Source of the DNA: a virus
Lineage: Duplodnaviria > Heunggongvirae > Uroviricota > Caudoviricetes
IMG/VR virus record: IMGVR_UViG_2718218126_000004
Length of the DNA: 45,714 nucleotides
Strand: one strand, 5' to 3'
Part shown: one piece after another, positions 40,764 to 41,255 of the stretch
How positions within the stretch are numbered: position 1 is the first letter of the stretch
How the letters are laid out: each line of letters starts with the position of its first letter
Translations under genes and position numbers: made by a program
The notes under the pieces: generated by a model
Seen by the model: the letters and a program-made list of their open reading frames with translations, nothing else
Databases searched by the model: none
What the model was told of the DNA's origin: nothing

Positions 40764-41255
40764 CTACAGATTGCCGTTAAGTTTTCTGGACAACTCCTCA
40801 ATGGATGGAGGCGATACGTAATCCGGATTTTTATTCATCAGAAACTTATTTTCACAGTGGAGGCACCTGCTTTTATGAAAAAGCTCATCTTCGCTAACCG
40901 GGAATGGTTGAAGTATCGATACTATCTTTTGTCCAAAACATTTTGGGCAAAGATGCATGGTTATGCTGCCACCGTTCACGATTACCTCCTTCGAGTATAC
41001 AAAAGTACCCGACTCAAGTTGGTTAAGGATATAGCCTTCCGTCTGAGCCTCAAAGTTTTCGAATTCTGCAATTTTAGCTTTGAGAGAAGCATTTATTTCT
41101 TGATAAGAGCCCACCAGTTCAACGAGAGACACGCATTCGCGCTGAATAGACGCAAGCTTTGAGTTCAGCTCACCAATAGCCGCATTTACTTCAGCTTGAG
41201 TTTTTGCCTCGTTCATTAGTTTTGCAATCTGGGCTGTTTCACGAATAGCCGTCAT
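40764..41255 (-). CDS. Hypothetical coiled-coil plus zinc-ribbon (CxxC...CxxC) protein at the rex/sieB-equivalent locus
   Basis: About 163 aa from the ATG at 41255; N-terminal helical region (IAKLMNEAKTQAEVNAAIGELNSKLASIQRECVSLVELVGSYQEINASLKAKIAEFENFEAQ), C-terminal CPKC...(21 aa)...CLHC; AT-rich; convergent with cI; I recognise no homologue. Confidence 0.55.
   Translation of the reverse strand: MTAIRETAQIAKLMNEAKTQAEVNAAIGELNSKLASIQRECVSLVELVGSYQEINASLKAKIAEFENFEAQTEGYILNQLESGTFVYSKEVIVNGGSITMHLCPKCFGQKIVSILQPFPVSEDELFHKSRCLHCENKFLMNKNPDYVSPPSIEELSRKLNGNL

What the first reader, a model, noticed from the sequence alone, without database searches (positions are those of the whole stretch)
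40764..41255. Uncharacterised AT-rich coiled-coil / zinc-ribbon gene next to cI, in the rex/sieB-equivalent moron position
Between the cI repressor gene and the early-left operon, where lambda carries rexAB and other lambdoids carry exclusion or defence cargo, there is a ~163-aa ORF on the opposite strand with a helical N-terminal half and a C-terminal CPKC...CLHC zinc-ribbon-like motif. Its GC content is markedly lower than its flanks and I recognise no family. Genes here are typically expressed in the lysogen and often confer superinfection exclusion or abortive infection, so this is the best candidate in the window for an undescribed function.
Basis: inference. Interest (0 to 1): 0.7.

Follow-up and report, generated by a model that had tools for sequence, protein, structure and literature searches.

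The report
Rip1-family pore-forming antiphage gene
The small gene beside the prophage repressor is a divergent member of the recently described Rip1 family, single proteins that detect ring-shaped packaging proteins of an invading phage and punch a pore in the membrane, so it is a real defence gene but of a kind already known.

Summary
The ORF is real, but its start is most likely the GTG at 41279. It has a long N-terminal helical half and a C-terminal CPKC...CLHC four-cysteine beta domain, as described.

It is not family-less. Sequence, profile and fold comparisons place it in the Rip1 ("ring interacting pore 1") family, PHROG 1244. The solved member is phage HK446 Rip1 bound to the T6 small terminase (PDB 9oox): profile E=3.6e-17, hhalign probability 100%, Foldseek probability 1.0, about 27% identity.

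Rip1 proteins are prophage-encoded, single-gene abortive defences. They assemble on oligomeric small-terminase or portal rings of an infecting phage and form a membrane pore.

The gene lies downstream of OL/pL, antisense to the early-left operon. That is the lambda sieB slot, where HK446 carries its Rip1, not the rexAB slot.

The cassette is in 686 of 5426 complete E. coli genomes, including O157:H7.

Verdict: a new member of a known kind. The defence guess is supported; "undescribed function" is not.

Side observation: the gene travels with conserved non-coding modules. These are a CA-rich leader, flanking inverted repeats, and an exact rrn-type boxA on the opposite strand. Unrelated cargo genes share the same modules.

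The parts
40764..41279 (-). rip1-like coding sequence. Long N-terminal helices, then a C-terminal beta domain with four cysteines.
   Evidence: ORF and sequence. Conserved N-terminus and GTG start. RefSeq 171-aa annotation of the O157 copy. PHROG 1244 at E=2e-58. PDB 9oox Rip1 at E=3.6e-17. Foldseek probability 1.0. hhalign probability 100%.
41280..41380 (-). Conserved ~100-nt 5' leader of the cassette. It holds two CCCCAACAACAA repeats (plus-strand coordinates 41294-41305 and 41327-41338) and a TAAGAG Shine-Dalgarno-like motif. The promoter was not identified.
   Evidence: Aligned across 16 loci from more than 10 genera. Conservation starts abruptly at GCCTG and exceeds that of the coding region. 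Predicted to be unstructured (z=+0.84). The scan found no sigma-70 consensus site.
41291..41316 (.). Gene-proximal (5'-side) arm of the inverted repeat that brackets the gene. The core is AATCTGGATATCC on the gene's sense strand and starts 37 nt before the start codon (24 nt lie between the end of the core and the start codon).
40737..40762 (.). 3'-side arm of the inverted repeat (GGATATCCTGATT core), just after the stop codon.
   Evidence: 26 nt, 81% complementary to the other arm. The core is conserved in 13 of 15 loci examined. The pairing appears in the predicted minimum-energy fold of either strand.
40698..40725 (-). Intrinsic terminator of the rip1-like gene: hairpin AAGCGTCC-TGTA-GGGCGCTT followed by a T-run.
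   Evidence: Terminator scan. Conserved downstream of the gene across genera.
40727..40739 (+). rrn-type boxA plus the start of its spacer (GCTCTTTAACAAT). It is on the early-left (pL) sense strand, where the phage transcript enters the cassette.
   Evidence: The only exact copy in the window. Identical over 13 nt to rrnG boxA-spacer ugcucuuuaacaauuua (PMC2724277). Present exactly once, 3' of the cargo gene and on the opposite strand, in 15 fetched loci.
40564..40618 (+). OL operators (40564-40579 and 40600-40615) overlapping a pL-like promoter (TTGTCA-17-TAGATT, 40590-40618).
   Evidence: The same operator motif occurs at OR. Promoter scan. A TTGACA-17-CATAAT promoter aligns at the same place in the SfV/PhiR49_1 immunity type.
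39910..40536 (+). cI-type repressor (HTH plus S24 peptidase). It ends 227 nt before the stop codon of the rip1-like gene, and the two genes converge.
   Evidence: Pfam Peptidase_S24 at 1.8e-27 and HTH_3 at 1.3e-9.

Best explanation
The gene encodes a Rip1-family protein: a one-gene, prophage-borne abortive-infection defence.

The mechanism below is inferred from the characterised members and was not tested on this copy.
- The protein is made in the lysogen from its own cassette and is harmless alone.
- A superinfecting phage reaches late gene expression and makes ring-shaped oligomers of its small terminase, or its portal.
- Rip1 subunits bind around the ring through their C-terminal zinc-ribbon/beta domain.
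- The ring templates a Rip1 oligomer. In the solved complex, 12 Rip1 subunits surround an 11-mer small terminase.
- The long N-terminal amphipathic helices then form a membrane pore. This destroys inner-membrane integrity before the invader completes assembly.

The variable C-terminal part of this clade would set which phage rings are recognised.

The gene sits antisense inside the early-left operon, with its own leader and terminator. It can therefore be expressed while the surrounding lytic operon is repressed.
For: Shown here:
- Sequence. A profile of 25 clade members hits PDB 9oox chain L (HK446 Rip1) over nearly full length at E=3.6e-17, and the next hit is E=0.09. The single sequence gives E=2.7e-7. 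BLASTP gives 27% identity over 148 columns.
- Direct tblastn hits to Pseudomonas Mu-like phages (JBD30, DMS3, D3112) at 2e-11 and to HK620/HK630 HkaP at 3e-13.
- Profile-profile. hhalign against an alignment headed by HK446 Rip1 gives probability 100%, E=4e-49, 157 columns.
- The window protein, HK446 Rip1, HK630 HkaP and JBD30 gp30 all score 2.7e-61 to 7.9e-51 to PHROG 1244.
- Fold. The AF2 model has pLDDT 88. Its only two significant Foldseek PDB hits are 9oox_L and 9oox_M (probability 1.00, TM 0.55/0.71), and the next hit is E=0.24.
- The four cysteines, the Y..G..VY hairpin and the SILQ motif are shared across the family.
- Within the clade, the helices and hairpin are conserved (0.57-0.72 identity). 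The inter-knuckle loop (0.35) and C-tail (0.24) are variable.
- Context matches the family. The gene lies on the strand opposite to the surrounding lytic operon in HK446, HK630, JBD30, Citrobacter, Cronobacter and Arsenophonus loci as well as here.
- It is monocistronic, with its own terminator.

From the literature: Rip1 function, triggers, 12:11 stoichiometry, pore formation and its mostly prophage distribution (PMC13434031 section 5; PMC12908700; PMC13601566).
Against: - Identity to the characterised proteins is only 27-29%, so the trigger and even the oligomeric state could differ.
- N-terminal amphipathicity is only marginally above shuffled controls (mean hydrophobic moment 0.27 against 0.20, 5% of shuffles reach it). 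No hydrophobic segment is predicted.
- No promoter could be identified for the gene, so expression in the lysogen is assumed.
- The primary Rip1 paper was not available, so family details come from a review and the PDB entry.
- The resident prophage itself makes a lambda-type Nu1 small terminase and a portal ring. How self-triggering on induction is avoided is unknown.
Confidence: 0.75

Rival explanations
1. A Rip1 homologue that blocks superinfecting phages, or regulates packaging, simply by binding and sequestering small-terminase or portal rings, without forming a membrane pore.
For: The homology to Rip1 is the same as above. There is no predicted hydrophobic segment, and helix amphipathicity is only marginal.
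Against: HK446 Rip1 has equally weak hydrophobicity by the same measure, yet it is reported to form pores and release dye from liposomes. The N-terminal helices are the best-conserved part of this clade, which argues that they have an effector role.
Confidence: 0.1
2. A function for the resident prophage itself, for example timing of lysis or control of its own packaging through its Nu1 or portal rings, rather than defence against other phages.
For: The prophage encodes its own ring-forming Nu1 small terminase and lambda-family portal. Some homologues sit within late or packaging operons.
Against: The gene is a swappable cargo cassette. It is found in prophages with different packaging and early-left genes, and unrelated genes replace it in otherwise near-identical phages. 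It is oriented against the lytic operon in every locus examined. In the Pseudomonas system the defence was demonstrated by expression and deletion analyses in lysogens superinfected with other phages.
Confidence: 0.05
3. A coiled-coil plus zinc-ribbon regulator that binds nucleic acid or RNA polymerase, resembling Chlamydia CT398 (a structure of the same two-part architecture), DksA/TraR or Ogr/Delta.
Confidence: 0.03
4. A decaying or non-functional hitch-hiker ORF with no current role.
For: No direct expression data, and no recognisable promoter.
Against: The reading frame is intact. The same 171-aa length recurs in the closest E. coli and Salmonella homologues. The cysteines and motifs are invariant across genera at 44-99% identity. 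The model is confident. Regulatory flanks are conserved. The cassette is present in 686 complete E. coli genomes.
Confidence: 0.02

Closest known systems
Rip1 of Escherichia phage HK446 (PDB 9oox, complex with T6 small terminase)
   Same: Same family (PHROG 1244). The length is similar (164 aa against 171). Both have long N-terminal helices followed by a beta/zinc-ribbon domain with CxxC...CxxC, the Y..G..VY hairpin and the SILQ motif. Both are single-gene cassettes on the strand opposite to the pL operon, downstream of pL in the lambda sieB slot.
   Different: Only about 27% identical. HK446 has an extra glycine-rich N-terminal segment of about 10 residues. The inter-knuckle loop and C-tail differ. 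HK446 Rip1 abuts gene N, whereas no N gene is evident here. The flanking inverted repeat and the boxA module of this clade were not found at HK446, HK630 or JBD30. The trigger specificity of this clade is unknown.
Rip1-family genes of Pseudomonas aeruginosa Mu-like prophages (for example JBD30 gp30, D3112 orf25, DMS3)
   Same: Direct tblastn hits at 29% identity, E=2e-11. Same PHROG. Also antisense to the surrounding operon. The review places the original Pseudomonas Rip1 between the small and large terminase genes. In JBD30 the homologue lies between two oppositely oriented genes annotated only as hypothetical proteins; that these are the terminase genes was not checked here.
   Different: They are located in the late/packaging region rather than the immunity region, and the host genus differs. 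In Pseudomonas phages the escape mutations were in the portal, whereas in E. coli phages they were in the small terminase.
HkaP of phages HK620, HK630 and HK629
   Same: Same family (28% identity, E=3e-13; PHROG 1244). Located in the pL operon next to N/HkaQ on the opposite strand.
   Different: It is uncharacterised under that name and belongs to a different clade.
Lambda SieB (and Rac SieB)
   Same: Same genomic slot and orientation: just downstream of pL/N and antisense to the early-left operon. From memory, it is a prophage-expressed abortive exclusion gene.
   Different: No sequence relationship (hhalign probability 0.07%). From memory, SieB is a membrane protein with a different and poorly understood mechanism.
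Lambda RexAB
   Same: An immunity-region abortive defence of a lysogen that acts on the membrane (from memory).
   Different: It is a two-gene system located between cI and OL and co-transcribed with cI. It is unrelated in sequence and occupies a different slot from the gene studied here.

Membership tests
Rip1 (ring interacting pore 1) / PHROG 1244 | Significant full-length sequence similarity to characterised Rip1 proteins | tested here: met
   Profile against 9oox_L E=3.6e-17 over residues 6-152. Single sequence 2.7e-7. hhalign probability 100%, E=4e-49. Same PHROG as HK446 Rip1 and JBD30 gp30.
Rip1 (ring interacting pore 1) / PHROG 1244 | Fold: long N-terminal helix or helices followed by a compact C-terminal beta domain that contacts the ring | tested here: met
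Rip1 (ring interacting pore 1) / PHROG 1244 | Conserved CxxC...CxxC (putative zinc site) and the Y..G..VY / SILQ motifs | tested here: met
   The cysteines are invariant in both alignments. Y, G and Y of the hairpin are nearly invariant, and the L of SILQ is invariant. Metal binding itself was not tested.
Rip1 (ring interacting pore 1) / PHROG 1244 | Amphipathic N-terminal helix able to form the pore | tested here: inconclusive
   Mean hydrophobic moment of residues 1-80 is 0.27 against 0.20 for shuffles, and 5% of shuffles reach it. The maximum is 0.44, not above shuffles. HK446 Rip1 gives similar values.
Rip1 (ring interacting pore 1) / PHROG 1244 | Single-gene system carried by a prophage | tested here: met
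   Monocistronic cassette with its own terminator, inside a complete lambdoid prophage with integrase, cI/cro, Nu1/gpA and portal. Homologues are in prophage contexts.
Rip1 (ring interacting pore 1) / PHROG 1244 | Activated by oligomeric small terminase or portal rings of an infecting phage; assembles about 12 subunits around the ring | not testable with these tools
   Known only for HK446 and Pseudomonas Rip1 (PDB 9oox title). No multimer prediction or experiment was possible.
Rip1 (ring interacting pore 1) / PHROG 1244 | Non-toxic alone; causes membrane permeabilisation and abortive infection on trigger | not testable with these tools
   Requires expression and infection experiments.
SieB superinfection exclusion | Sequence similarity to lambda/P22 SieB | tested here: not met
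   hhalign probability 0.07% against lambda SieB. Only the genomic slot is shared.
DksA/TraR or Ogr/Delta C4 zinc-finger regulators | Match to the family zinc-finger profile | tested here: not met
   No such Pfam family at E<=0.1, and no such structure among the significant Foldseek hits.

The most novel reading that the evidence does not exclude
The enterobacterial clade of this gene rides in a reusable "antisense moron chassis". The chassis is built so that it does not break the phage operon it interrupts.

On the operon-sense strand, the cassette presents these elements in order:
- a hairpin;
- an exact rrn-type boxA plus the start of its spacer;
- one arm of a 14-26-nt inverted repeat;
- about 0.5 kb of untranslated antisense RNA;
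- the other arm of the repeat.

This layout resembles the leader, boxA and flanking stem that bracket 16S rRNA.

The reading is as follows. boxA would recruit the Nus factors so that the early-left transcript escapes Rho termination while it crosses the untranslated stretch. The flanking stem would loop out, or allow excision of, the antisense segment. The same chassis carries at least three unrelated, uncharacterised cargo genes. It would therefore mark a family of exchangeable defence cassettes.
Probability: 0.3. Interest if true: 0.6.

Novelty: new member of a known kind. Interest (0 to 1): 0.4.

Why it matters
- It assigns a likely function to a "hypothetical protein" found in about one in eight complete E. 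coli genomes, including O157:H7. That function is a Rip1-type, packaging-ring-triggered pore.
- It defines a divergent clade whose variable C-terminal surface could recognise different phage terminases or portals. This bears on phage-therapy host range and on prophage competition.
- It shows that the sieB slot of lambdoid prophages is used by Rip1 genes in several phage lineages.
- The conserved non-coding chassis, if functional, would explain how phages tolerate antisense cargo inside essential operons.
- The chassis also gives a sequence handle (leader, inverted repeat, boxA) for finding further uncharacterised cargo genes.

Tried and rejected
- Pfam, NCBIfam and PADLOC scans of the protein gave only sub-threshold coiled-coil noise. 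PADLOC-DB dates from 2023, before the 9oox structure was released (2026-02-04).
- I considered a DksA/TraR-like or Ogr-like zinc-finger regulator because of the cysteine spacing. I rejected it on the Pfam and Foldseek results.
- SieB homology was rejected.
- I looked for a sigma-70 promoter for the gene, both with the scan and by eye on the 16-locus alignment. I also checked sigma-54, sigma-32 and sigma-E patterns by eye. Nothing was convincing. A partly conserved TGTTAT just upstream of the conserved block is only a weak extended -10 candidate.
- I tested whether mismatches in the inverted repeat reveal the strand on which it pairs. G-U-compatible positions number 28 on the operon-sense strand against 5 on the mRNA-sense strand. 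This can be explained by the invariant C/A-rich 5' arm together with a transition bias. Both strands also fold into the long-range stem. The strand therefore remains unresolved.
- The inverted repeat as transposon ends: I found no transposase and no clear target duplication, and did not pursue it.
- The primary Rip1 paper (doi 10.1038/s41586-025-10075-1) is not in the library, and no preprint was found.

Full report
**1. The observation**

The minus strand carries an ORF that ends at 40764.

Aligning 25 homologues shows that eight residues upstream of that ATG (MIAELtAA) are conserved. The start codon at that position is GTG in most loci from more than ten genera. RefSeq annotates the O157:H7 copy as 171 aa. 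I therefore take 40764-41279 as the gene. The longer readings (259 aa, 242 aa in PhiR49_1) are over-extensions.

The helical N-terminal half and the CPKC...CLHC motif are real. The AlphaFold2 model (mean pLDDT 88) has helices at 2-24 and 28-79, followed by six strands. The four cysteines are invariant.

The GC claim is half right. The ORF is 42.8% GC against 51.8% for the window and 52.6% for the spacer on its right. But cI (43.4%) and the spacer on its left (41.9%) are just as AT-rich.

**2. Where it sits**

The window is a lambdoid prophage:
- cro, cII and O on the minus strand to the left;
- cI at 39910-40536 on the plus strand;
- yfdP, yfdQ, an HD-hydrolase-like gene (named only in the PhiR49_1 and 689R6 records), xis and int on the plus strand to the right;
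- lambda-type Nu1, gpA and portal genes further left.

The repressor-operator repeat AACTAAGnnnnGTTAG has five matches in the window at up to two mismatches. Two are at OR (39823, 39872) and two directly after cI (40564, 40600). The fifth, at 15458, has two mismatches and is probably chance. The pair after cI overlaps a promoter-like site, TTGTCA-17-TAGATT, at 40590-40618 on the plus strand. In phages of the other immunity type (SfV, PhiR49_1) a TTGACA-17-CATAAT promoter aligns at the same place.

So OL/pL lies immediately after cI. The ORF is downstream of pL and antisense to the early-left transcript. In lambda that is the sieB slot: sieB at 34482-35036 on the plus strand, abutting N. It is not the rexAB slot, which lies between cI and OL.

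The interval is a cargo slot. With the same flanks, different phages carry different genes here:
- SfV carries orf33;
- vB_EcoM-689R6 carries a 68-aa and a 144-aa gene;
- E. coli strain A_5 carries a 167-aa gene.

**3. What the protein is**

Pfam, NCBIfam and PADLOC give nothing significant. PHROGs places the protein in phrog_1244, "unknown function" (E=2e-58).

A profile of the 25 homologues, searched against PDB sequences, hits one entry strongly. That entry is 9oox chain L, "ring interacting pore 1 (Rip1)": E=3.6e-17 over residues 6-152 of the profile and 16-160 of the 164-aa chain. The next hit has E=0.09.

Further comparisons agree:
- The single sequence gives E=2.7e-7.
- BLASTP gives 27% identity.
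- Foldseek of the model against the PDB returns only 9oox_L and 9oox_M as significant hits (probability 1.00, TM 0.55/0.71), and the next hit has E=0.24. That entry is the cryo-EM structure of phage HK446 Rip1 bound to the T6 small terminase.
- hhalign of this clade against an alignment headed by HK446 Rip1, HK630 HkaP and JBD30 gp30 gives probability 100% and E=4e-49.
- Those three proteins fall in the same PHROG.

An exhaustive profile search finds 2346 cluster representatives at E<=1e-3 and 658 at E<=1e-10, nearly all 145-180 aa.

**4. What Rip1 does (literature)**

The primary paper (Patel et al. 2026, Nature 651:1060) is not in the library. I rely on a review section (PMC13434031), a meeting report (PMC12908700) and a citing paper (PMC13601566). 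They report the following:
- Rip1 is a prophage-encoded single protein and is not toxic on its own.
- On infection it disrupts inner-membrane integrity.
- Escape mutations map to the portal in Pseudomonas phages and to the small terminase in E. coli phages.
- Cryo-EM shows 12 Rip1 subunits around an 11-mer small-terminase ring.
- The N-terminal part is an amphipathic helix, and the C-terminal half contacts the ring.
- The complex forms a pore that releases dye from liposomes.
- Homologues are widespread in Proteobacteria, mostly in prophages.

**5. Fit of this gene to that mechanism**

Shown here are homology, fold, conserved motifs, the single-gene cassette and the prophage context.

The orientation also fits. 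In every locus examined the gene points against the surrounding lytic operon:
- HK446, next to N;
- HK630;
- JBD30;
- Citrobacter, between cI and xis/int;
- Cronobacter, in a Rac-like prophage between kilR and the repressor, which from memory is the Rac sieB position;
- Arsenophonus, between lysis and terminase genes.

Within the clade, the helices and the beta-hairpin are conserved (0.57-0.72 pairwise identity). The loop between the two CxxC knuckles (0.35) and the C-tail (0.24) are variable. That is what one would expect if the C-terminal half reads diverse phage rings; this is inference.

Several points are weak or untested. Amphipathicity is only marginally above shuffled controls, though HK446 Rip1 behaves the same way. 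No promoter was identified. Trigger, stoichiometry and pore formation cannot be tested here. How the resident prophage's own Nu1 and portal rings avoid triggering the protein is unknown.

**6. Distribution**

The 652-nt cassette is present at >=80% coverage in 686 of 5426 complete E. coli genomes, usually once. This includes O157:H7, where it sits in a Rac-like prophage at 94% identity. It is also in the ECOR13-derived phages PhiR49_1 and PhiR29. Clade members occur in Salmonella, Citrobacter, Klebsiella phage Kp4882-1, Trabulsiella, Scandinavium, Cronobacter, Enterobacter, Kosakonia, Buttiauxella, Edwardsiella, Erwinia, Symbiopectobacterium, Serratia symbiotica and Arsenophonus.

**7. Cassette anatomy (side finding, partly followed up)**

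Across genera and prophage types the gene travels with non-coding modules that are better conserved than the protein.

- *5' leader.* On the 5' side there is a leader of about 100 nt (41280-41380). Its conservation starts abruptly at GCCTG. It contains two CCCCAACAACAA repeats and a TAAGAG Shine-Dalgarno-like motif. It is predicted to be unstructured.
- *Inverted repeat.* A repeat with the core AATCTGGATATCC(C) brackets the gene. The 5'-side core ends 24 nt before the start codon, and the 3'-side core begins 0-47 nt after the stop. It spans 26 nt at 81% complementarity in the window. The core is found in 13 of 15 loci. It is absent at HK446, HK630, JBD30 and Arsenophonus.
- *3' module.* On the 3' side come GTTAAAGAGC and an intrinsic terminator.
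- *boxA on the opposite strand.* Read on the opposite strand, the sense of the phage's early-left transcript, this 3' module is a hairpin followed by GCTCTTTAACAAT (40727-40739). That sequence is identical over 13 nt to the rrnG boxA-spacer ugcucuuuaacaauuua (PMC2724277). It is the only exact copy in the window. It occurs exactly once, always just 3' of the cargo gene and on the opposite strand, in 15 of the 33 loci fetched up to that call.
- *Shared by unrelated cargo.* The same modules flank the unrelated cargo genes of 689R6 and strain A_5. Those genes show no similarity to Rip1 and have no Pfam or PADLOC hit.

Because boxA recruits NusB/NusE and can shield transcription from Rho (PMC12360218), I propose one reading. 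The chassis protects the early-left transcript while it crosses about 0.6 kb of untranslated antisense RNA. This is inference. boxA can also promote termination in some contexts.

The long-range stem of the inverted repeat appears in the predicted folds of both strands. The excess of G-U-compatible mismatches on the operon-sense strand (28 against 5) has a compositional explanation. The strand on which the repeat acts, if it acts as RNA at all, is therefore unresolved.

**8. Verdict**

The feature is real and is a defence gene. It belongs to a family that has already been characterised functionally and structurally. It is a new, divergent and very common member, sitting in a new non-coding setting.

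| Item | Value |
|---|---|
| Confidence of Rip1 family membership | about 0.95 |
| Confidence it works as a ring-triggered pore | about 0.75 |
| Interest | 0.4 |
| Probability of the novel (chassis) reading | about 0.3 |

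Noticed in passing
window 40727-40739 (+), with the hairpin at 40706-40725: An exact rrn-type boxA plus the start of its spacer (GCTCTTTAACAAT, 13 nt identical to rrnG) lies on the pL-sense strand where the early-left transcript enters the antisense cassette. It is conserved once per locus in 15 related loci, always opposite to the cargo gene. It may be an anti-polarity element.
   Followed up: partly
window 40737-40762 and 41291-41316: An inverted repeat (core AATCTGGATATCC) brackets the gene and is conserved across genera even where the protein is only 44-62% identical. 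Its role is unknown: RNA stem, protein-binding site or recombination boundary. It is absent from the HK446, HK630 and JBD30 Rip1 loci.
   Followed up: partly
window 41280-41380 (-): The roughly 100-nt leader with two CCCCAACAACAA repeats is conserved more strongly than the coding region and is shared with unrelated cargo genes. No sigma-70 promoter is recognisable. The CA-rich (AAN)n repeats might be translation-enhancer or Hfq-binding motifs, which is speculation.
   Followed up: partly
window 41391-41614 (+): A match to the prophage sRNA family STnc100 (Rfam RF02076) scores 41.1 bits, below the gathering score of 47, with E=8e-7. It ends in an intrinsic terminator and lies between the cassette and yfdP on the early-left strand. 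It is nearly invariant among SfV-like phages. A 24-nt-arm hairpin follows at 41614-41700.
   Followed up: partly
L003 2748-3360 (phage vB_EcoM-689R6); L008 1706-2209 (E. coli A_5); L002 2591-2887 (SfV orf33): Unrelated genes occupy the same slot: phrog_1744 plus phrog_5286 (annotated by RefSeq as an "ECs1072 family" protein), a 167-aa ORF, and phrog_3195. None has a Pfam or PADLOC hit. The first two sets share the boxA/terminator and leader modules. They are candidates for further undescribed defence genes.
   Followed up: partly
window 40632-40697 (+): A 66-nt segment immediately downstream of pL (AACAGGCAGGACGCCCACGAAGTAGCCGCCTGGGGCATATGAAGTCCAGGATGATTCGTT) is conserved in phages of both immunity types, whatever the cargo. 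It is probably a leader element of the early-left transcript. No N-like gene is evident between pL and yfdP.
   Followed up: no
window 2644-2842 (-): A strong match to Rfam IS009 (RF02111; 220.9 bits against a gathering score of 117) lies near the far end of the prophage.
   Followed up: no
window 24886-29132 (-): The resident prophage encodes a lambda-type Nu1 small terminase, the gpA large terminase and a lambda-family portal. These are themselves ring-forming proteins of the kind that trigger Rip1. This raises the question of how self-activation on induction is avoided or exploited.
   Followed up: no
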